DNA from: an uncultured cyanobacterium
Lineage (GTDB): Bacteria; Cyanobacteriota; Cyanobacteriia; Cyanobacteriales; Microcystaceae
DNA: 64,000 bases
Assembly: GCA_963807635.1 (NCBI GenBank)
Contig: CAWEDJ010000071.1
Span: forward strand, 32,001-96,000
Direction of reading: 5' to 3'
This document shows positions 36,174-51,577 of this stretch, in pieces (position 1 is the first letter of the stretch; each line of letters begins with the position of its first letter). A program made the translations under genes and the position numbers. Under the pieces are notes generated by a model. It was not told the origin of the DNA and did no database searches. It saw nothing but the letters and a program-made list of their open reading frames with translations.

Positions 36174-36818
36174 CTATGCTTTCTCGGCCTTTGCTTTGCC
36201 AGCCTTTGCTATCCTTCGTTTGAAGCCAATACCAAATCCTGCGGCGGTCATTGCTCCCAACATCGTTAGGGGTTCGGGGACAGCCTGGTAGGTGTTAGAA
36301 ACAGAAGTTAGGGAACCATTAGCGTTTACTGTGATAGTATCTGTAACGTAGAATTCATTCAGAGGAGGGACAATAAAACCTAAATAGGCAGAATCATTAC
36401 TAACGATAGGAAACCCTGCAATATCAGCTCCACCAGGCGTTAAAGAAATGCTTTTCAGAGAAGAAGTCAGCTCAGCGTTCTGGTTTACAGTAACGCCGCC
36501 TATTGGCTCGCCAGTTTTTGTGACTTTGTAGGTAATGTTGTAGGAACCTGCTCCAACGGTAACAGGGCCAGTAGCGACGGACAATTGCGGGCCTTTTGGT
36601 GCTGAAGAAGCGGTAATTACGTAATCAAGCCAATTCAAATTGGTGGTGGTGGTACTAAAGTCAGAGAAAGTCGTAGATCCAACGGTAAGAGAGTTAGATC
36701 CAATTGAGCCAATCGTGAACGCATTGGCAGAGGGAGCCAGTAGTGCTGATCCAGAGATTACTCCTAGCGTAGCGATCCCCATCACTAGAGATTGATATTT
36801 ATTAGATGGAATGGTCAT
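36174..36818 (-). CDS. PEP-CTERM (cyano-type) surface protein
   Basis: Signal peptide ending PSANA, Ser/Thr-rich body, C-terminal VPEPLTMLG-TM-FKRR. Confidence 0.9.
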   Translation of the reverse strand: MTIPSNKYQSLVMGIATLGVISGSALLAPSANAFTIGSIGSNSLTVGSTTFSDFSTTTTNLNWLDYVITASSAPKGPQLSVATGPVTVGAGSYNITYKVTKTGEPIGGVTVNQNAELTSSLKSISLTPGGADIAGFPIVSNDSAYLGFIVPPLNEFYVTDTITVNANGSLTSVSNTYQAVPEPLTMLGAMTAAGFGIGFKRRIAKAGKAKAEKA

Positions 36819-37243
36819 AATGGTATCGTGATCCAGAGAATAAAATTGTGTCAATAGTGTTTTGTGTCCAAGTTGATTATGAATTATGTCATCCAAGGAC
36901 ATTTTATCAAGTCAACTAAAGGGATTAGGGAGACAGTCTCAAATTTTAAGAAATTTCCTAATCAGAGAAGCTAAATACAGATTTTACCATAAAAAAATGA
37001 CCTGTCAAGCTTCAAAAAAATTAGAGAACTAAAATAAATTTTTTATCAAGAAAGATTCAAGCAATTACTACTTAGGAGAAAGAGTCTTTGGCACAGTTAT
37101 TTGACCATGATTTACTTGCTGCTATTTTTGTAATTTTGTATCCAAAGTTATCGATTAACGCGAGAAGACTTAACCGTAAAAAGAGAGAGAGATTATTTAA
37201 GAGATTGTTTAATTGTCATGGGCAGATAAAAAACAATATTTGC

Positions 37244-40386: not shown

Positions 40387-41776
40387 GTGACAACAGCAAA
40401 AAAAACGTGGAGCGATCGCTTTGAAGGGTCATTGCACCCCGCCATTGTGCTTTTTAATGCCAGTATCGGCTTTGATATTGAACTGATCGAGTATGACTTA
40501 AGCGGATCAGTCGCCCACGCCAAAATGTTAGGCCATACGGGGATTATTTCACCCACAGAGGCCGATCAATTGGTCGAAGGATTAGAAACCATCCGCCAGG
40601 AATATCGGGACGGTAAATTCACCCCAGGCATTGATCAAGAAGATGTGCATTTTGCAGTAGAACGACGACTCACGGAATTAGTAGGGGATGTGGGCAAAAA
40701 ACTCCATACAGCCCGTTCTCGTAATGATCAGGTCGGAACCGATGTTCGGCTTTATCTCCGCGCAGAAATAGACCAGATTCGGGATTATCTTCGAGATTTT
40801 CAACGGGTTCTGGTGACGATCGCCGATAAAAATGTCGAAACCCTGATCCCAGGCTATACCCATCTCCAACGCGCCCAACCCGTTAGCCTCGCCCATCACT
40901 TTTTGGCGTATTTTCAGATGGCACAGCGAGATTGGCAACGCCTCGGAGAAATTCGCGCCCGTACTAATATTTCTCCCCTCGGATCGGGAGCCTTAGCAGG
41001 AACCACCTTTCCCATTGATCGCCATTATAGTGCTAATTTACTCGGTTTTGAAGGGGTTTATGCCAATAGCTTAGATGGAGTCAGCGATCGCGACTTTGCC
41101 ATTGAATTTCTCAATGCGGCGAGCCTAATCATGGTACATCTCAGCCGTCTGAGTGAAGAAATGATTCTCTGGGCTTCCCAGGAATTTAGCTTTATTAGCC
41201 TAACCGATAGCTGTGCAACGGGTTCTAGCATCATGCCCCAAAAGAAAAATCCTGATGTTCCCGAACTGATTCGCGGTAAAGCAGGACGAGTCATTCGGCC
41301 ATCTTCAGGGAATGTTGGTTTTGATGAAGGGTTTACCCTTGGCCTATAACAAAGACCTCCAGGAAGATAAAGAAGCTCTCTTTGATGCGGTTAAAACTGT
41401 TAAAGTTTCCCTCGAAGCCATGACGGTTTTACTAGAAGAAGGGATTATTTTCCGTCAAGAAAGACTGGCAGAAGCGGTTTCTGAAGATTTTTCTAATGCC
41501 ACCGATGTGGCAGATTATTTAGCAGCTAAGGGTGTGCCTTTCCGAGAAGCCTACAATTTAGTCGGAAAAGTGGTCAAAAGTAGTCTTGCGATCGGGAAAT
41601 TACTCAAGGATCTCAGCCTAGAGGAGTGGAAAGCCTTACATCCTGCCTTTGAAAGCGATATTTATGATGCGATCGCTCCTCGACAGGTGGTTGCCGCCCG
41701 CAATAGCTATGGTGGCACAGGATTTGAGCAAGTCCGACTAGCCCTTGCATCAGCCAAAGCAGAAATTGGGCAATAG
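40387..41776 (+). CDS. argH: Argininosuccinate lyase; frameshift near 41293
   Basis: [43 protein letters not shown]. Confidence 0.95.
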
Positions 41777-42224: not shown

Positions 42225-42680
42225 ATGCAACAAATTTGGCGATACCTCAAAACTTTTTTAAAAGTTGCCTTCCGTCACCCTGTCACGGGGGTCACAATTG
42301 TCCCTATTTTGCCCGATGGACGCATCGCTCTAATCCAACGACGAGACTCTGGACAATGGGGTTTACCTGGCGGATTAGTCGATTACGGAGAAGATATTCC
42401 GACGACGGTAAGAAGGGAACTCACGGAAGAAACGGGACTAAATTTACTCAAAATTAGGCGTTTAGTAGGCGTTTATTCCCATCCCGATCGCGATCCACGA
42501 ATGCACTCCATCACCGTCTTAGTAGAAGCCGAAGTTGCAGGGAATTTAGCCACAAACGATACCCTAGAAGTATTAGATGTCAAAGCTTTTACTTTGGAAG
42601 AATTACCCCTGGGCGATTTGAGCCATGATCACGATCGCCACCTGAATGATTTTTTACAAGGGTTAACGATTATTGCCTAA
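42225..42680 (+). CDS. NUDIX hydrolase
   Basis: GGLVDYGE..TVRRELTEETG Nudix box. Confidence 0.9.
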   Translation: MQQIWRYLKTFLKVAFRHPVTGVTIVPILPDGRIALIQRRDSGQWGLPGGLVDYGEDIPTTVRRELTEETGLNLLKIRRLVGVYSHPDRDPRMHSITVLVEAEVAGNLATNDTLEVLDVKAFTLEELPLGDLSHDHDRHLNDFLQGLTIIA

Positions 42681-42702
42681 ATAATCTGATTTTTACTGTA
42701 AA

Positions 42703-42748
42703 ATAGAAATCTGTCAAATTTGATAGATTTCTATCTTTAAGATATAAT
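42703..42748 (+). promoter_or_regulatory. Sigma70-type promoter overlapped by a 32-bp palindrome
   Basis: TTGATA (42720-42725), 17 bp spacer, TATAAT (42743-42748); palindrome ATAGAAATCTGTCAAA|TTTGATAGATTTCTAT (42703-42734, one mismatch). Confidence 0.6.
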
Positions 42749-42854
42749 CATTTTCAGAATTTCAGACTAAAATCATTGTTTGTGATTATTGTCAATTTTT
42801 GCAACAAAGGACTATACCCCCTCACAACTAAATTGGATTTAAATTGAAATAATT

Positions 42855-43187
42855 ATGAAGAAATCACCAGTTAATCCACGCTTAACATTTGATTATGTGA
42901 AAAGTAGTCTATTTCGCACAATTCATGCTGATGGCGTAGTAGGAAGTATTACTCCAGCATCTAACATTTATATTGCTTTTTTTAATGAACGTTTTGCAAT
43001 TCCCCAACAATTAGTATTTGAGATTCAACCTGATGGAGAAATCGGAGATGAAATTTTAGAATCTCGACGTTCCAGAGATTCGGTACTAAGAGAAATGGAG
43101 GTAGGAGTGACCATGAGTATTGATGCCGCAGAGTTTCTTCTGGAATCCTTACAAGAAATTATTAAGGAAGCAAAAGAACAAATGTAA
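42855..43187 (+). CDS. Hypothetical protein, beta-strands plus C-terminal helix (DUF3467-like); gene 1 of a three-gene cassette
   Basis: FRTIHADGVVGSITP...IAFFNER...REMEVGVTMSIDAAEFL; the family call is by pattern only. Confidence 0.6.
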   Translation: MKKSPVNPRLTFDYVKSSLFRTIHADGVVGSITPASNIYIAFFNERFAIPQQLVFEIQPDGEIGDEILESRRSRDSVLREMEVGVTMSIDAAEFLLESLQEIIKEAKEQM

Positions 43188-43252
43188 GGAGACTAACATT
43201 TGTTTAAATTGTTAATCATCAACTTTAAAGATTCAACTAAGACAAAGCAATT

Positions 43253-43750
43253 ATGGCAACCACTTATCATAAGCCCAAAATTGAGAGTGTTTCGTCTGGG
43301 CGAATATATCGCACAAGATCTTTTCACGCAAGTAAGTATAGTCATTTCACTATTTCTAATAATATTGATTCTTTATGGAAAATTCAACCCGCGTTAGATA
43401 ATTTAGAAAAACTCTCCCTCTTGCCAAACAATTGGGACTCTTATGGTGCTGAATGTCCATCAACATTGGCCGTGGAGAATGCTCGTTCGTTTTTGTTTAA
43501 GTTGCCATCTTATTTTTCTTATTTATCGCCCCACGAAATTAATCCTTTTACAATAGTTCCAGTTTGTGATGGAGGGATTCAAATAGAATGGCGTAATAAA
43601 TATGCAGAAATTGAATTAGAAGTCGAATCTGATGGTAAATTTTCCTACTTACTTATTGATAAATCTCAAAAAGAAAGAGTTTTTCTAGAGAAACATGGAG
43701 TAGTTCCTTCAGATATAATTAAATTACTTGAAAAAGTATTTTATCATTGA
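43253..43750 (+). CDS. Hypothetical protein, putative antitoxin; gene 2 of the cassette
   Basis: LEKLSLLPNNWDSYGA...PVCDGGIQIEW...ELEVESDG. Confidence 0.6.
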   Translation: MATTYHKPKIESVSSGRIYRTRSFHASKYSHFTISNNIDSLWKIQPALDNLEKLSLLPNNWDSYGAECPSTLAVENARSFLFKLPSYFSYLSPHEINPFTIVPVCDGGIQIEWRNKYAEIELEVESDGKFSYLLIDKSQKERVFLEKHGVVPSDIIKLLEKVFYH

Positions 43751-43779
43751 TTTTAAGTATCTTTTAGCTTCAATATTAA

Positions 43780-44163
43780 ATGTTAGAAAGAATTTTAGAC
43801 GAAGATGAGCTTTATCGGAGGCTACCTCTTATTTCTTTAAATAGTGACGGTACTGTTAATTCTGCGGCCTTTAAGCTTAGGGGTAAGCCAGATCCTAATA
43901 TTTCCGTAGATCTCGCTAGATTGACAACTCCTCAAGAGAGTTTAAATAGAGTAGTAAATCCTAATAATTTTAGATTAGGAGCATTCCTTGCCAATACTCC
44001 ACGAAATCTTGGATTGACAGTAATTCATGATCCTCTTAATGATAATTATGCTCATTCGCTCATTCAAGATAATGAAAACACACAAAATAGTAAAGTTATA
44101 TGTCGTCTTCTTGCGGAATCTACCAAAGTTATTTTTCCTCCCGATGAGGTGATCGCAGATTAA
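43780..44163 (+). CDS. Hypothetical protein, putative ADP-ribosyltransferase-fold toxin; gene 3 of the cassette
   Basis: ELYRR...AFK...ISVD...HDP...NYAHSLI: R-S-H spacing typical of small ART-like domains. Confidence 0.55.
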   Translation: MLERILDEDELYRRLPLISLNSDGTVNSAAFKLRGKPDPNISVDLARLTTPQESLNRVVNPNNFRLGAFLANTPRNLGLTVIHDPLNDNYAHSLIQDNENTQNSKVICRLLAESTKVIFPPDEVIAD

Positions 44164-44373
44164 ATGAAGTTTAGGTTACTCAGAATATTTTAATGGGAGT
44201 AAGTCTTGCTAATCTAAAGGATTTTCTTGAGAATATCTACAATATTTTCGTTATAAATTGGTCTTAAAATCCAGCTTAAGTAATAATTATAATCTGAGAA
44301 AAATTAACATTAATATCCTGATTCGGTGCATCTATTTTTGAACTAATTTTTTCCGTAATTCGGTTTTAATACC

Positions 44374-45909
44374 ATGAATTTTTCCCAACTTATCCAAGCA
44401 ATGCAGGGGTCGAATTTTTATCCCCATTCAGTACACCCTGAAATTCGAGTTATTCAGACCCATTGCTCCATTGTCTTTTTAACTGGAAACTATGCCTATA
44501 AAATCAAAAAAAATGTTGATTTTGGCTTTCTAGATTACTCGACTCTCGCAAAGCGTCATTATTTTCTGCAACAGGAATTGGAGATGAATCAAGCGATCGC
44601 TCCTGAGATCTATCTGGAAGTTTTGCCGATTAGTGAGATCGATACTTCTTTGGTTTTAGGAAGTTATAAAAACGTGGTGGAATACGTGCTTAAAATGGCT
44701 GAGTTTCCCCAGTCTGCTCTTTTAATTAGTTTGTTTGAAAGAGAGGAATTACAAGAATTCCATCTACGAGAATTGGGAGAAGTCGTTGCTAATTTTCACC
44801 AAAAAACCCATACAAATGATTATATTAAAAGTTTTGGAAACGTTGAAGTCATCAAAAAATCCATTGATGATAATTATCAAGCGACCCAAAAATATATTGG
44901 GATTACTCAAACTCTGGAACAGTATCAGGAAACTCGACAATTTACCGATAATTTTTTAACTCAAAAAAAAGCTATTTTTGAATCCCGTTGTATCAATAAT
45001 AAAATTCGGGAATGTCACGGAGATTTACACCTTAGAAATATTTGTTACTGGCACAATCAAATCCAACTCTTTGATCGCATTGAATTTAATGAACCCTTTC
45101 GCTTTGTGGATGTGATGTATGATATCGCCTTTACAGTGATGGATTTGGAGGCAAAGGGAAGAAAAGATTTAGGGAATATTTTTCTGAATACCTATTTAGA
45201 AAAAACAGGAGATTGGGAAGGATTACAAGTATTGCCGTTTTATTTGTGTCGTCAAGCCTATGTGCGAGCTAAGGTGACTTCTTTGTTATTAGATGATCAA
45301 AATATTACTGAATCAGAGAAAGAAAATGTGAAACAAATTGCGAAAAATTATTACCATTTAGCCTGGCAATATACCCAGAGTTCCCAAGGAAAAATGATTG
45401 TCATGTCGGGCTTGTCGGGTTCGGGGAAAAGTACCGTCGCCAAATATCTTGCGCCGAAAATAAATGCCATTCATCTGCGCTCTGATGCGGTGCGAAAACA
45501 TTTAGCGGGAATTCCCCTAGATCAAGCTGGAGATGATAACTTATATAGTCCAGAAATGAATGAGAAAACCTATCAATTTCTGTTAGAGTTAGGGCTTTTA
45601 TTAATCAGTCAAGGATTTTCAGTGATTCTAGATGCGAAATATGACCGTCATCAATGGCGATCGCCTATTGTAAACGCGGCGGAAAAGGGTGATTTTTGCT
45701 TAAAAATTTTGTATTGTCAGGCTTCAATGGAAACCTTAACCACTCGGTTACAAACCAGGAAAGGTGATATTTCTGATGCAACCCCTGATTTACTCGTTCA
45801 ACAACAGGCAAATACTGATATTTTTAATGAAACGGAAAAAAAATACGCGATCGCAGTAAATACCGAGTCTGAGAATTGGCAATCAGGTCTTGACTCTTGG
45901 TTAAACTAG
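44374..45909 (+). CDS. Aminoglycoside-phosphotransferase-like + AAA_33 P-loop kinase fusion
   Basis: IQTH, RECHGDLHLRNI, FDRIEFN, GLSGSGKST, SDA motifs. Confidence 0.88.
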   Translation: MNFSQLIQAMQGSNFYPHSVHPEIRVIQTHCSIVFLTGNYAYKIKKNVDFGFLDYSTLAKRHYFLQQELEMNQAIAPEIYLEVLPISEIDTSLVLGSYKNVVEYVLKMAEFPQSALLISLFEREELQEFHLRELGEVVANFHQKTHTNDYIKSFGNVEVIKKSIDDNYQATQKYIGITQTLEQYQETRQFTDNFLTQKKAIFESRCINNKIRECHGDLHLRNICYWHNQIQLFDRIEFNEPFRFVDVMYDIAFTVMDLEAKGRKDLGNIFLNTYLEKTGDWEGLQVLPFYLCRQAYVRAKVTSLLLDDQNITESEKENVKQIAKNYYHLAWQYTQSSQGKMIVMSGLSGSGKSTVAKYLAPKINAIHLRSDAVRKHLAGIPLDQAGDDNLYSPEMNEKTYQFLLELGLLLISQGFSVILDAKYDRHQWRSPIVNAAEKGDFCLKILYCQASMETLTTRLQTRKGDISDATPDLLVQQQANTDIFNETEKKYAIAVNTESENWQSGLDSWLN

Positions 45910-48197: not shown

Positions 48198-49258
48198 ATG
48201 AAAAATCGACAAAAATTCATGTTAGATTATTGTCTTAAAGTTCCCGTGGTTGGCTTTTTTCTGCTTAACTTAAATGCTTGCGACTGGATTAGTCAGCGAT
48301 TTTTCCCCTCTACCCAATTTACAGCTCGCAACTTGGGAGTAATTGTCAATACGGCTGATCCTCTGAGTGTGCAAATTGCGGAATATTATCAACGACAACG
48401 GAAAATTCCTCAGCAAAATATTATTAAAATTTCCTTTCCTGCTAATCGTTCTGAACTTTCGTCGGAAGAATTTTTAGCCTTACAAAGGAAGGTTAAAGCC
48501 CAAACACCGAGCCAAGTGGAAGGTTATGCTCTTACCTGGGCTGCCCCCTACCGAGTCGGTTGTATGTCGATTACCAGTGCCTTTGCCTTTGGCTATGACC
48601 AGTCTTATTGTGCCAATGGCTGTCAGCCGACTGCCGTGAATCCCTATTTCAATCAGGAAACGATTCATCCCTATCAAGATTTTAAAATGCGTCCGACTAT
48701 GATGATCGCCGCGACGAATTTTACTGAAGCGAAGGGATTAATCGATCGCGGGGTGGCTTCGGATGCGACCTATCCCCCAGGACGGCCTATCTAATGGATA
48801 CCAGTGATAAGGCTCGTAATGTGCGATCGCAGTTTTATCCTGCTGTGATCAATTATCTGGGTTCTCGTTTGCGGATTGTGACTCCTAAAAGTGATGCCCT
48901 GGAAAATAAGACTGATGTGATGTTTTATATTACGGGACGCGCCCAGGTTAACAAAATTAAAACCAATCAATTCAGACCAGGTGCGATCGCCGATCACCTC
49001 ACTTCCCTGGGCGGACAACTCACCGATAGCTCCCAAATGAGTAGCCTACGTTGGCTAGAAGCAGGAGTAACGGGTAGTTATGGGGCAGTAGTCGAACCCT
49101 GCAACTTTTTGCAAAAATTTCCCCATCCAGGCGTAGTCATCCAATCCTATCTCAATGGAGCAACGCTATTAGAAAGTTATTGGCGAAGTGTGGCGTGGCC
49201 AGGCCAGGGCGTATTTATTGGAGAACCCCTAGCGCGTCCCTATGGTCAAAAATCTTAA
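48198..49258 (+). CDS. TIGR03790-family protein (exosortase-associated distribution); frameshift near 48781
   Basis: LGVIVNTADPLSVQIAEYY, PYRVGCMSITSAF, GAIADHLTS, GAVVEPC, GEPLARP. Confidence 0.75.
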
Positions 49259-49888: not shown

Positions 49889-50075
49889 AAAGTTCGTACC
49901 CCATAGTTCGGTCATTGACGAGCGGAGAACCGTTTCACCCATTCGGGGGAAGTGCAACAATTACTAGTTTAGGCAATCTTTAGATAGAGTGAATCGATTT
50001 CGGTTAAATTCTTTGCAATTATTTCACTTTTCTGGAAATATATGGGCAAAATTAGGTTCATTCTTAGGAAAATCT

Positions 50076-51577
50076 ATGATTTCTTTTCTTTCTAAGAAAT
50101 ACAAAAACCCTTGGCTTCTGCTTTTATTCATCGCGATCGCCTATGGAGGAATTGATTTCTTTTTTCTCCAGTACCAGCACTCACCCCAGGCTTTTTGGGT
50201 ACTCCAGGCGTTTATGATAGTTACTGCCACAACAACCGTGCTTTTAGTCGTCGCGATCGCCAAACGTCAACGGATTGAACAGCAATTACGCCATACCCTA
50301 GAACGGGATCGACTGCTTGCAGAAGTTGCCCTGAAAATTCGACAATCTTTGGAATTAGGAGAAATTTGTCAAACCACCGTGACAGAAGTGCGGGAATTAT
50401 TGCAGGTGGATCGGGTCTATATCGGCTTTGTACAAGAGCAAACCTTTCGGGTGGTAGCCGAAGCGATCGCCCCTGATCAAATATCTCTTTTAGATTGGCA
50501 AGAGCAAGTCCCCAGTTATGAAGAAATCGCGCCTTTTATTCCTCAAAAAGTGATTATTGCTGATAATATTGCTGACTTGGATATACTCAAACCGTTAAAA
50601 ACCTATTATCAACATTACCAAATTAAATCTCTCCTCGCCGTTCCCTGGTGACCCAGGATCAAACCCTCGGCTTACTGGTTGCCCATCAATGTTCTCGATT
50701 TCGACATTGGCAAAAGGGAGAAGTCCGTTTATTAGAACAATTAGGGACTCAAGTGGCGATCGCGGTGCAACAGGCCCAACTCTATCAACAGGTGCAAATT
50801 CTTAACAGTAATTTAGAAAAACAGGTGCGATCGCGTACTTTGGAACTCGAAGATCGAATGCTGGAACTCGAAGAGCTACAGGAAATGAAAGCCGTCTTTT
50901 TGCAAGCCGTTTCCCACGATCTCCGCACTTCTATGATGGGTTTATTGATGTTATTGAAAAATCTACAAAATCGACCTGGCGACAATATAAGCCTTTCCCG
51001 TTCCATCCTCGACCGTCTGATCCAAAGCGGCGATCGGCAACTTACCCTATTAAATGCTCTCTCTGAAAATCACTTTGCAGAAAATCGTCCCCTCCTCTTA
51101 AATCGTCAACCCATTAATTTGAGTAACTTTTTAGATCAAATTTTGCAAGAATGGCGATCGCCTTTTTCCCAAAATCAAGTCAGTATCACCCATAAAATTC
51201 CCGACACATTTCCCCCTATCTTTGCCGATGTTCAATTTTTAAAACAAGTGTTTGATAATCTCTTAACCAATGCTCTCAAACACAATCCGCCTGGAATTCA
51301 ATTGGCGATCAAAGCCCATATCGAAGGAAACATGATGCGTTGTCTGCTTATTGATAATGGTGTCGGCATGGATCAACAGCAATGTGAAAAATTATTTCAT
51401 CTTTATCTCAGAAGTTTACATAATCAACGACTCACGGGAATTGGTCTGGGATGTTATCAATGTCGGCAAATTATTGAAGCACATGGGGGACAAATCGGGG
51501 TTTCCAGTATTCTCCAAAAAGGCAGTCAATTTTGGTTTACCTTACCCCTAGCTCAATCGGCAAAAACAGCTATTTGA
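50076..51577 (+). CDS. Membrane GAF-domain sensor histidine kinase; frameshift near 50646
   Basis: Two TMs, GAF (IRQSLEL...DRV...GLLVAHQC), AVSHDLRT, NLLTNALKH, DNGVG, GIGLG. Confidence 0.88.

What the first reader, a model, noticed from the sequence alone, without database searches (positions are those of the whole stretch)
42855..44163. Uncharacterised three-gene cassette resembling a tripartite toxin-antitoxin / anti-phage system with an ART-like effector
Seen: three small co-oriented genes (110, 165 and 127 aa), AT-rich, with no perfect HIP1 site, between core genes and with their own promoter. Gene 3 has LYRR...ISVD...NYAH, gene 2 has LxxLPNNWDSYGA...DGGIQIEW and an extended N-terminus, and gene 1 is a DUF3467-like beta/helix protein. 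Known: ART folds use a strand-1 Arg and strand-2 Ser, and ART toxins occur in three-component toxin-antitoxin-chaperone defence systems such as CmdTAC. Inference: gene 3 is the toxin, gene 2 the antitoxin and gene 1 a chaperone or sensor, in an order and with families unlike the TAC systems I know. A strong SD (AAGGAG, 43186) precedes a TTG at 43200 in another frame, so the gene 2 start is uncertain.
Basis: partly seen in the sequence, partly recalled or inferred. Interest (0 to 1): 0.75.

Follow-up and report, generated by a model that had tools for sequence, protein, structure and literature searches.

The report
ADP-ribosylating toxin cassette with swappable partner
This is a real three-gene insertion whose last two proteins are predicted to form a toxin-antitoxin pair built on an ADP-ribose-transfer enzyme fold; its first gene occupies a slot that unrelated genes fill in other bacteria, and likely acts as an exchangeable trigger or chaperone in an untested defence system.

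Summary
The three genes are real and form a clean 1.67-kb AT-rich insertion between a Nudix and a kinase gene; congeners and some metagenomes carry the empty site.

Gene 3 models confidently as an ADP-ribosyltransferase (ART)-superfamily fold with conserved R13/S42/H92, not CmdT's H-Y-[EDQ] set. Gene 2 lies directly upstream of gene-3 relatives in 100 of 106 other loci and is predicted to bind gene 3 beside those residues (ipSAE 0.88, best control 0.17). Genes 2 and 3 are distant relatives of PADLOC candidate PDC-M32A (C-terminal domain only) and PDC-M32B.

Gene 1 is weakly DUF3467-like and models as PC4/PUR/COMM-like; no SecB was listed. Its family precedes the same gene 2-ART core in other phyla, and also other toxin-antitoxin-like pairs. 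Conversely, the slot before gene 2 is filled by several families (TIGR04255, SDH Clp-fold protease, DUF6941 and others), and gene 2's N-terminal tail is longer when a partner is present.

Best reading: a type II ART toxin-antitoxin core with an exchangeable, non-SecB third component, analogous to toxin-antitoxin-chaperone (TAC) systems but reversed in order. Toxicity, substrate, gene 1's role and phage defence are untested.

The parts
42681..44353 (.). Accessory insertion. The left junction is right after the Nudix stop codon (42680); the right junction lies between 44353 and 44372, just before the kinase gene ATG (44374). It replaces a 50-60 bp intergenic spacer.
   Evidence: Congeners G065 and G068 join 42680 to 44354/44365; joints 42680 to 44365/44372/44373 in runs X1, X8, X4
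42703..42734 (.). 32-bp palindrome (16-bp arms, one mismatch) overlapping the -35 box; candidate operator or RNA hairpin
   Evidence: 0 of 2000 shuffles of the 174-bp intergenic region reach it (max 13); single copy in the genome. Variants in runs X4 and X6 break several pairs
42720..42748 (+). Sigma-70-like promoter consensus TTGATA-N17-TATAAT
   Evidence: 11 of 12 match; consensus only
42855..43187 (+). Gene 1 (110 aa): weakly DUF3467-like, predicted PC4/PUR/COMM-like beta-sheet plus helix; exchangeable third component
   Evidence: 1480 family representatives; DUF3467 in 15 of 123 members at E<=0.1, best 0.0011; model pLDDT 95; COMMD Z 5.4, Pur-alpha 4.1, PC4 3.9
43186..43397 (+). AAGGAG plus out-of-frame TTG ORF (43200-43397, 65 aa); in some natural alleles this frame is a 16-aa N-terminal extension of gene 2
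43253..43750 (+). Gene 2 (165 aa): about 40-aa variable N-terminal tail plus conserved WDSYG/GGxQxEW domain; predicted antitoxin; homologous to the C-terminal domain of PDC-M32A
   Evidence: PADLOC E 1.9e-8, profile 263-347 of 375; adjacency 100 of 106; predicted complex
43780..44163 (+). Gene 3 (127 aa): predicted minimal ART-superfamily domain with R13(R14)-S42-H92; predicted toxin; distant PDC-M32B relative
   Evidence: Model pLDDT 90.5; fold hits; conservation; PADLOC E 1.7e-4
44152..44273 (.). Degenerate dispersed repeat of about 110 bp just after gene 3
   Evidence: 5 other copies at 73-77% identity in this genome; copies also in G065 and G068

Best explanation
The insertion likely encodes a type II toxin-antitoxin pair plus an exchangeable third protein: gene 3 is predicted to be an NAD+-using ADP-ribosyltransferase-fold toxin, gene 2 is predicted to bind and block it, and gene 1 likely holds or senses through gene 2's variable N-terminal tail. 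Shown: the insertion, the tight gene 2-gene 3 linkage, the swapping of the upstream slot among several families, and gene 1's recurrence before different gene pairs. Predicted: the ART fold, and docking of gene 2's conserved WDSY loop and beta-sheet on gene-3 residues 14-34, 41-42 and 104-109, next to R13/R14 and S42. Inferred by analogy to SecB toxin-antitoxin-chaperone systems: gene 1 stabilises the tailed antitoxin; a phage protein or stress displaces it; the antitoxin is lost; the freed toxin modifies a nucleic acid or translation target, or degrades NAD+, and aborts infection. In relatives the same slot can hold a Clp-fold protease that would cut the tail directly.
For: Fold: the top VIA-align rows are ART-superfamily members (HopF2/AvrPphF Z 7.3, rmsd 3.5, 93 aligned; KptA/Tpt1 Z 7.2; Tse2 5.4; DarT 4.7; TreX 4.6; TreTu 4.3), and Foldseek agrees (KptA prob 0.97, E 0.05). 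R13 112 of 113, R14 112 of 113, S42 113 of 113, H92 112 of 113, on or at model strands 10-16, 40-45 and 92-96. Linkage: gene-2 homologue directly upstream in 100 of 106 other loci; 4 lacked upstream DNA, 2 were not adjacent. Complex: ipSAE 0.88 against a best control of 0.17; this mark was reached by 116 of 157 solved and 2 of 215 mismatched pairs; runs agree in at least 89% of contacts; partner pLDDT at least 78. The interface uses gene 2's most conserved residues (L57, W61-Y64, P103, Q110, E112). Two-gene versions carry VapB (E 4e-12), UPF0175 (6e-7) or DUF433 (1e-11) domains in place of the tail. Upstream slot: 63 of 102 loci fall in 8 classes, scattered on the ART tree (18 changes, minimum 8). 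Tail length: median 82 aa (55-160) in 29 partner-bearing lineages against 48 (24-155) in 15 without, one-sided p=0.007. L007 (no partner, 27 aa) and L003-L005 (DUF3467-like partner, 79-93 aa) share one ART cluster. The gene 1 family precedes a gene-2 homologue in 4 of 15 loci from two other phyla, and other pairs in 6 more.
Against: No experiment. All fold Z-scores are under 8 and Foldseek E-values above 0.001, so each match alone is middling. The canonical catalytic Glu is absent (His92 instead), so gene 3 may be an NADase or have other chemistry. No physical link between gene 1 and gene 2 was tested. Gene 1 shows no toxin-antitoxin-like pair downstream in 5 of 15 loci, and many gene 2-ART pairs have no third gene. 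The tail statistic is not phylogenetically independent, weakens to p=0.03 with maximal open frames, dropped 7 lineages with short upstream DNA, and used class profiles seeded from the same loci. The cassette lies between housekeeping-type genes, not in a defence island, and the close-family pattern found no viral contig.
Confidence: 0.5

Rival explanations
1. Genes 2 and 3 are a toxin-antitoxin pair, but gene 1 is a nucleic-acid-binding regulator or sensor (PC4/PUR-like). It replaces the DNA-binding domain that two-gene versions fuse to the antitoxin, for example by binding the promoter palindrome or phage single-stranded DNA.
For: PC4/Pur-alpha fold hits; a significant palindrome over the -35 box; none of the three proteins had an HTH or RHH family hit; VapB, UPF0175 and DUF433 fusions were seen only in partner-less loci; conserved basic residues K16, R21, R46, R79.
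Against: The best fold hits are COMM domains, which are protein scaffolds. Other occupants of the slot include a Clp-fold protease. The palindrome is disrupted in the X4 and X6 alleles. The long tails would be unexplained.
Confidence: 0.2
2. The functional unit is only the two-gene PDC-M32-like pair; gene 1 and the other upstream genes are passengers that accumulate in the same accessory cassettes.
For: 22 of 51 lineages have no recognised partner; gene 1 has no such pair downstream in 5 of 15 loci.
Against: The same three-family order recurs in distant phyla; partners abut or overlap gene 2; tail sequences are class-specific and longer with partners.
Confidence: 0.17
3. Gene 3 is an ART-fold enzyme that is not a toxin (a signalling transferase or NADase), and gene 2 is its dedicated substrate or activator rather than an inhibitor.
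For: A predicted contact beside the active site fits a substrate as well as an inhibitor; no canonical Glu. CmdT needs CmdA to fold (PMC11618068, passages), so a partner can also be a helper.
Against: Fusions of gene 2 to known antitoxin domains; patchy presence/absence (2 of 89 family genomes; empty and filled sites in one sample); homology to a defence-embedded candidate.
Confidence: 0.13

Closest known systems
PDC-M32 (PADLOC phage defence candidate; Payne et al., bioRxiv 10.1101/2024.01.29.577857)
   Same: Gene 2 matches the C-terminal ~85 positions of PDC-M32A (E 1.9e-8) and gene 3 matches PDC-M32B (E 1.7e-4), in the same order. Relatives score better, e.g. L002 gene 3 at E 5e-9.
   Different: PDC-M32A is ~375 aa; its N-terminal ~260 aa are absent here, replaced by a short tail and a separate gene 1. 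PDCs are computational candidates; M32 is not named in the main text (supplementary tables not visible).
CmdTAC and other SecB toxin-antitoxin-chaperone systems (PMC11618068; bioRxiv 10.1101/2024.02.24.581848)
   Same: Three small genes with an ART-fold effector, an antitoxin with a variable tail, and a third gene that recurs with different toxin-antitoxin pairs.
   Different: CmdT has the H-Y-[EDQ] triad; here it is R-S-H. CmdA is two helices plus a disordered C-terminal tail; gene 2 has a conserved C-terminal domain and an N-terminal tail. TAC chaperones are SecB-like and come last; gene 1 comes first, models as PC4/COMM-like and is exchangeable. No CmdTAC model was hit in PADLOC.
Minimal ART-superfamily domains: HopF2/AvrPphF-ORF2, KptA/Tpt1, Tse2, RES, TreTu/TreX, DarT
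   Same: Split beta-sheet ART-like fold, Z 4.3-7.3; strand-1 Arg and strand-2 Ser as in the R-S-E clade (definition read in passages of bioRxiv 10.1101/2020.07.21.169896).
   Different: No sequence-level hit to Pfam or PDB; His in place of the strand-5 Glu. That Tse2 uses an R-S-H set is recalled, and one search did not confirm it.
DUF3467 (PF11950) and PC4/PUR/COMM-like domains
   Same: 15 of 123 gene-1 family members hit DUF3467 weakly; beta-sheet plus C-terminal helix fold.
   Different: Gene 1 itself does not hit DUF3467; fold Z at most 5.4; no role in toxin-antitoxin systems turned up in the searches.

Membership tests
ART superfamily | Split beta-sheet ART fold | tested here: met
   Model pLDDT 90.5; the top VIA rows are ART-like, best Z 7.3, rmsd 3.5, 93 aligned. 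Each match is middling but the list is consistent.
ART superfamily, R-S-E clade | Arg on strand 1 and Ser/Thr on strand 2 | tested here: met
   R13 112 of 113, S42 113 of 113
ART superfamily, R-S-E clade | Catalytic Glu on strand 5 | tested here: not met
   Strand 92-96 carries H92 (112 of 113); no conserved Glu among the nearly invariant columns
ART superfamily | NAD+-dependent ADP-ribose transfer | not testable with these tools
   Needs biochemistry
CmdTAC | Toxin with H-Y-[EDQ] triad | tested here: not met
   Conserved set is R-S-H; CmdT triad from PMC11618068 passages
SecB toxin-antitoxin-chaperone (TAC) systems | Third gene is a SecB-like chaperone | tested here: inconclusive
   No SecB hit in Pfam and none listed in fold searches; listed hits are COMM/PUR/PC4
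SecB toxin-antitoxin-chaperone (TAC) systems | Toxin-antitoxin genes followed by the chaperone gene; C-terminal ChAD tail on the antitoxin | tested here: not met
   The third gene is first and the variable tail is N-terminal; definition
PDC-M32 | PDC-M32B homologue preceded by a PDC-M32A homologue | tested here: met
   Both hit, adjacent and in order, at weak E-values
PDC-M32 | Full-length (~375 aa) PDC-M32A | tested here: not met
   Only profile 263-347 of 375 matched; gene 1 has no PDC-M32A hit. A 377-aa form with the domain at its C-terminus exists in L109.
Type II toxin-antitoxin | Direct protein-protein complex of the two products | tested here: inconclusive
   Prediction passes (0.88 against control 0.17), which supports but does not show binding
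Type II toxin-antitoxin | Toxicity and rescue | not testable with these tools
   Needs expression tests

The most novel reading that the evidence does not exclude
Gene 1 founds a second, non-SecB class of tripartite toxin-antitoxin immunity. A PC4/COMM-like protein placed in front of diverse toxin-antitoxin pairs controls antitoxins through N-terminal 'addiction' tails, and the R-S-H ART core plugs into at least seven interchangeable trigger modules (DUF3467-like, TIGR04255 types, SDH Clp-fold protease, DUF6941, a 90-aa beta protein). This would assign a common role to several families of unknown function.
Probability: 0.35. Interest if true: 0.85.

Novelty: new variant of a known kind. Interest (0 to 1): 0.68.

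Why it matters
The tripartite toxin-antitoxin defence systems in the papers I read use SecB-like chaperones as phage sensors. A core whose regulatory slot is swapped among unrelated folds, including a protease, would show that the sensing module is general and exchangeable. It would give testable functions to TIGR04255, DUF3467-like and DUF6941 proteins, and supply the fold and probable mechanism of the unannotated PADLOC candidate PDC-M32. The 127-aa R-S-H ART-fold family has no Pfam model and an unknown substrate. The cassette is small enough to test directly, and it is present or absent among strains of a cyanobacterium found in lake and other aquatic metagenomes.

Tried and rejected
Searches that found nothing useful: Pfam, NCBIfam and PHROGs gave no significant hit for any of the three proteins. 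PDB sequence searches with all three family profiles were empty or chance-level. SecB was not listed for gene 1 in either fold search; this is not proof of absence. The ESM Atlas gave no answer, so gene 2 has no stand-alone fold assignment. The viral-contig scan with the gene-3 pattern found nothing. Gene 1 had no phage match and matched no other of 400 sampled genomes of this phylum. No RNA holder was listed. A search for long fusions of gene 2 returned one 316-aa long-tailed protein. Five look-ups of earlier findings returned nothing relevant.

Ideas rejected or left open: HIP1 absence as evidence of foreign origin was rejected. An assembly frameshift at the gene-2 start was rejected. HicB/HicA identity of the pairs after gene 1 in L133, L134 and L138 is a by-eye recollection that Pfam and PDB did not confirm. 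Homology of the two TIGR04255-like classes to TIGR04255 was not shown (hhalign probability 2% and 0.1%), nor of gene 1 to the L003-L005 upstream protein (E 0.06). No transposase, integrase or target duplication was seen at the junctions.

Literature: ten searches found no description of this architecture. The library lacks most subscription papers and bioRxiv supplements.

Full report
1. Observation. The three ORFs, their sizes and motifs are as described. They lie between a Nudix gene (42225-42680; PF00293 E 1e-22) and a 511-aa AAA_33 kinase gene (44374-45909). The genome is HIP1-rich (4738 sites), which by established knowledge indicates a cyanobacterium. In two congeners at 90-93% identity the Nudix stop is joined to the kinase gene by 50-60 bp, so 42681-44353 is an insertion. 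Runs X1, X4 and X8 hold joints across it, and X1 and X4 also hold the filled form, X4 in a single 2091-bp contig. The gene-3 profile matched 2 of 89 genomes of the family, including this one, and 0 of 5 congeners. Low GC is significant (0.32; lowest 2% of windows). The lack of HIP1 is not (377 of 2353 windows have none). No mobility gene flanks it; exchange by homologous recombination in the flanking genes is my inference.

2. Gene 3. A word-based search gave 182 relatives among 194 candidates, none of the 120 listed with a Pfam domain. I aligned 113 of the 120 listed. The AlphaFold2 model has pLDDT 90.5 and pTM 0.83. VIA-align ranks HopF2/AvrPphF-ORF2 (Z 7.3, rmsd 3.5, 93 aligned), KptA (7.2), Tse2 (5.4), Tpt1, DarT, TreX, diphtheria toxin, TreTu and other ART-like chains at the top. 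Foldseek independently ranks KptA/Tpt1, AvrPphF and RES, without E<=0.001. Single scores are middling, but the agreement of the list makes the fold assignment firm. R13, R14 and H92 are kept in 112 of 113 sequences and S42 in all. The R...S...H pattern is also visible by eye in distant relatives not found by the S42-containing pattern (L108, L109, L112, L127, L128, L140). In the clade scheme read in passages of 10.1101/2020.07.21.169896 this is R-S-E-like with His for Glu. CmdT is H-Y-[EDQ] (PMC11618068, passages).

3. Gene 2. Of 106 other loci carrying a gene-3 relative (not dereplicated), 100 have a gene-2 homologue directly upstream (one, L097, in the same frame), 4 lack upstream DNA and 2 do not. 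Hosts named in record titles include cyanobacteria, Chloroflexota, Acidobacteria, Bacteroidota and Hydrogenedentota. The complex prediction scored 0.88 against a best control of 0.17. This mark was reached by 116 of 157 solved and 2 of 215 mismatched pairs (counts hold only roughly with my alignments); runs agree in at least 89% of contacts and partner pLDDT is at least 78. The interface joins gene-2 residues 53-64, 99-112, 121-146 to gene-3 residues 14-34, 41-42, 57-64, 104-109, that is the conserved WDSY loop and sheet against the face bearing R14 and S42. In three partner-less loci the domain is fused to VapB, UPF0175 or DUF433; that the last two are antitoxin-associated is recalled. PADLOC links the domain to the PDC-M32A C-terminus and gene 3 to PDC-M32B. 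The PDC preprint (passages) presents PDCs as predicted from embedding in BREX, DISARM and RM systems; M32 is not in its main text, and its supplements, which I could not see, may annotate it. The only paper holding 'PDC-M32' reports PADLOC hits in a Sinorhizobium prophage (PMC12429752, passages).

4. Start codon. Nine cluster members aligned share MATT at the ATG (9 of 15 listed). Three longer ones read the TTG frame in register, adding 13-16 aa. Eight laid runs list no frame-restoring indel, and all eight have G at 43242. The out-of-frame state is therefore a common natural allele and ATG 43253 the likely start.

5. The upstream slot. Among 102 loci with a gene-2 hit, 63 have a recurrent upstream family: TIGR04255 class 18, a 250-aa class A 15, SDH Clp-fold protease 10, a 90-aa beta protein 7, class B 5, DUF6941 4, DUF3467-like by eye 3, this gene 1 once (profiles seeded from these loci). 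On a 48-row ART tree the labels need 18 changes (minimum 8, shuffled mean 25.8; bootstrap not fully settled), so partners are clustered but were swapped repeatedly. From 85 loci with a complete 5' end, 51 lineages remained at 75% ART identity: 29 with partner, 22 without, 7 of the latter dropped for having under 450 nt upstream. Residues before the WDSY Trp: median 82 (55-160) against 48 (24-155), one-sided p=0.007 by first ATG, 0.011 by any start, 0.034 by maximal frame. Lineages are not independent. Tails are Ser/Thr-rich (20% against 11% in the domain) and class-specific. The window's value, 60, is near the low end of the partner class. Further contexts: TIGR04255-gene 2-ART in a Peduoviridae phage record, DUF4209-gene 2-ART on two Hymenobacter plasmids, and a 377-aa PDC-M32A-sized form in Rhodococcus.

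6. Gene 1. The family is large (1480 representatives at E<=0.001). 15 of 123 aligned members hit DUF3467 below its cut-off. The model (pLDDT 95, pTM 0.69) matches COMM domains (Z 5.4, rmsd 2.9, 59 aligned; a bacterial COMMD-like protein 5.0), Pur-alpha (4.1) and PC4 (3.9) (Foldseek PC4 probability 0.75). These are scores of a common arrangement. The COMMD paper has no hit for operon, defence or phage (PMC13392464, term search). The profile matched only this genome among 401 of its phylum, but 10 of 351 and 4 of 135 genomes of two other phyla. In those 15 loci a gene-2 homologue follows in 4 (L127, L137, L140, L141; E 3e-5 to 1e-9). An ART relative then follows in L127 and L137 (E 0.005, 0.03) and L140 (hhalign E 2e-4); none was seen in L141, whose gene 1 has internal stops. 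L128 looks the same by eye (E 0.004, probability 9%). Five more precede other two-gene units: DUF5678-like (below cut-off) plus aspartyl protease (L131), an unknown plus DUF7689 (L139), and three pairs that look HicB/HicA-like by recollection only. Five show no such pair. This promiscuity is what SecB-like chaperones show in TAC systems (10.1101/2024.02.24.581848, abstract, introduction and start of results read).

7. Mechanism. Shown: insertion, linkage, slot swapping, recurrence of the three-family order. Predicted: ART fold and gene 2-gene 3 binding (I put the toxin-antitoxin core at about 0.75). Inferred: gene 1 acts on the antitoxin tail (about 0.45), and the purpose is phage defence (about 0.55). 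The main rival is that gene 1 is a PC4-like nucleic-acid-binding regulator; a 16-bp-arm palindrome over the -35 box (0 of 2000 shuffles) keeps this open.

8. Novelty. It works like a TAC system but fails TAC membership on gene order and tail position, and CmdTAC membership on the catalytic triad. It shares its core with the uncharacterised candidate PDC-M32 but lacks most of PDC-M32A. Ten literature searches and term searches in PMC10440598 and PMC13069673 (passages) found no description of the architecture, within a library that lacks most subscription papers. Verdict: new variant of a known kind, interest 0.68; 0.85 if the exchangeable non-SecB trigger model holds (probability 0.35).

Noticed in passing
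window 42703-42734: 32-bp palindrome overlapping the cassette's -35 box, unique in the genome; it could be an operator or a hairpin ending the Nudix transcript.
   Followed up: partly
window 44152-44273: Degenerate ~110-bp repeat with 5 other copies in this genome and copies in congeners; unclassified.
   Followed up: partly
L012, L028, L039, L045, L049, L056, L062, L063, L067, L069: SDH-family Clp-fold serine protease directly upstream of gene 2-ART: a candidate protease-triggered ART toxin system.
   Followed up: partly
L111:2920-4225 (Acetobacter plasmid NZ_CP014688.1): A protein with apparently two tandem gene-2-like domains, followed by a gene annotated as ClpXP adaptor SspB and with no ART hit; another link of this domain to proteolysis.
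   Followed up: no
L112:194-2061 (phage record ON170239.1): TIGR04255-gene 2-ART cassette near the end of a Peduoviridae phage record, next to a PAAR-like gene (by eye).
   Followed up: partly
L108:947-3743 and L110: DUF4209-containing 618-aa protein before gene 2-ART on Hymenobacter plasmids; the ART gene is not in the L108 annotation table, and a HipA pair follows.
   Followed up: partly
L057, L068, L074, L075, L082, L083, L089: A ~90-aa beta-rich family with no Pfam hit fills the upstream slot.
   Followed up: partly
L097:365-1033: Gene 2 and a truncated ART in one reading frame; may be a fusion or a frameshift artefact.
   Followed up: no
L131, L139, L133, L134, L138: Gene-1 family in front of DUF5678-like/aspartyl protease, unknown/DUF7689 and HicBA-looking pairs; possible further tripartite systems.
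   Followed up: partly
window 40387-41776, 48198-49258, 49989-51577: Several housekeeping-type genes appear split across two frames (argH-like by eye, a 198+154-aa pair, a sensor kinase), suggesting single-base assembly errors or pseudogenisation in this contig.
   Followed up: no
window 36174-36902 (-): 242-aa ORF ending in a VPEP...hydrophobic...KRR motif typical of PEP-CTERM proteins (recalled).
   Followed up: no
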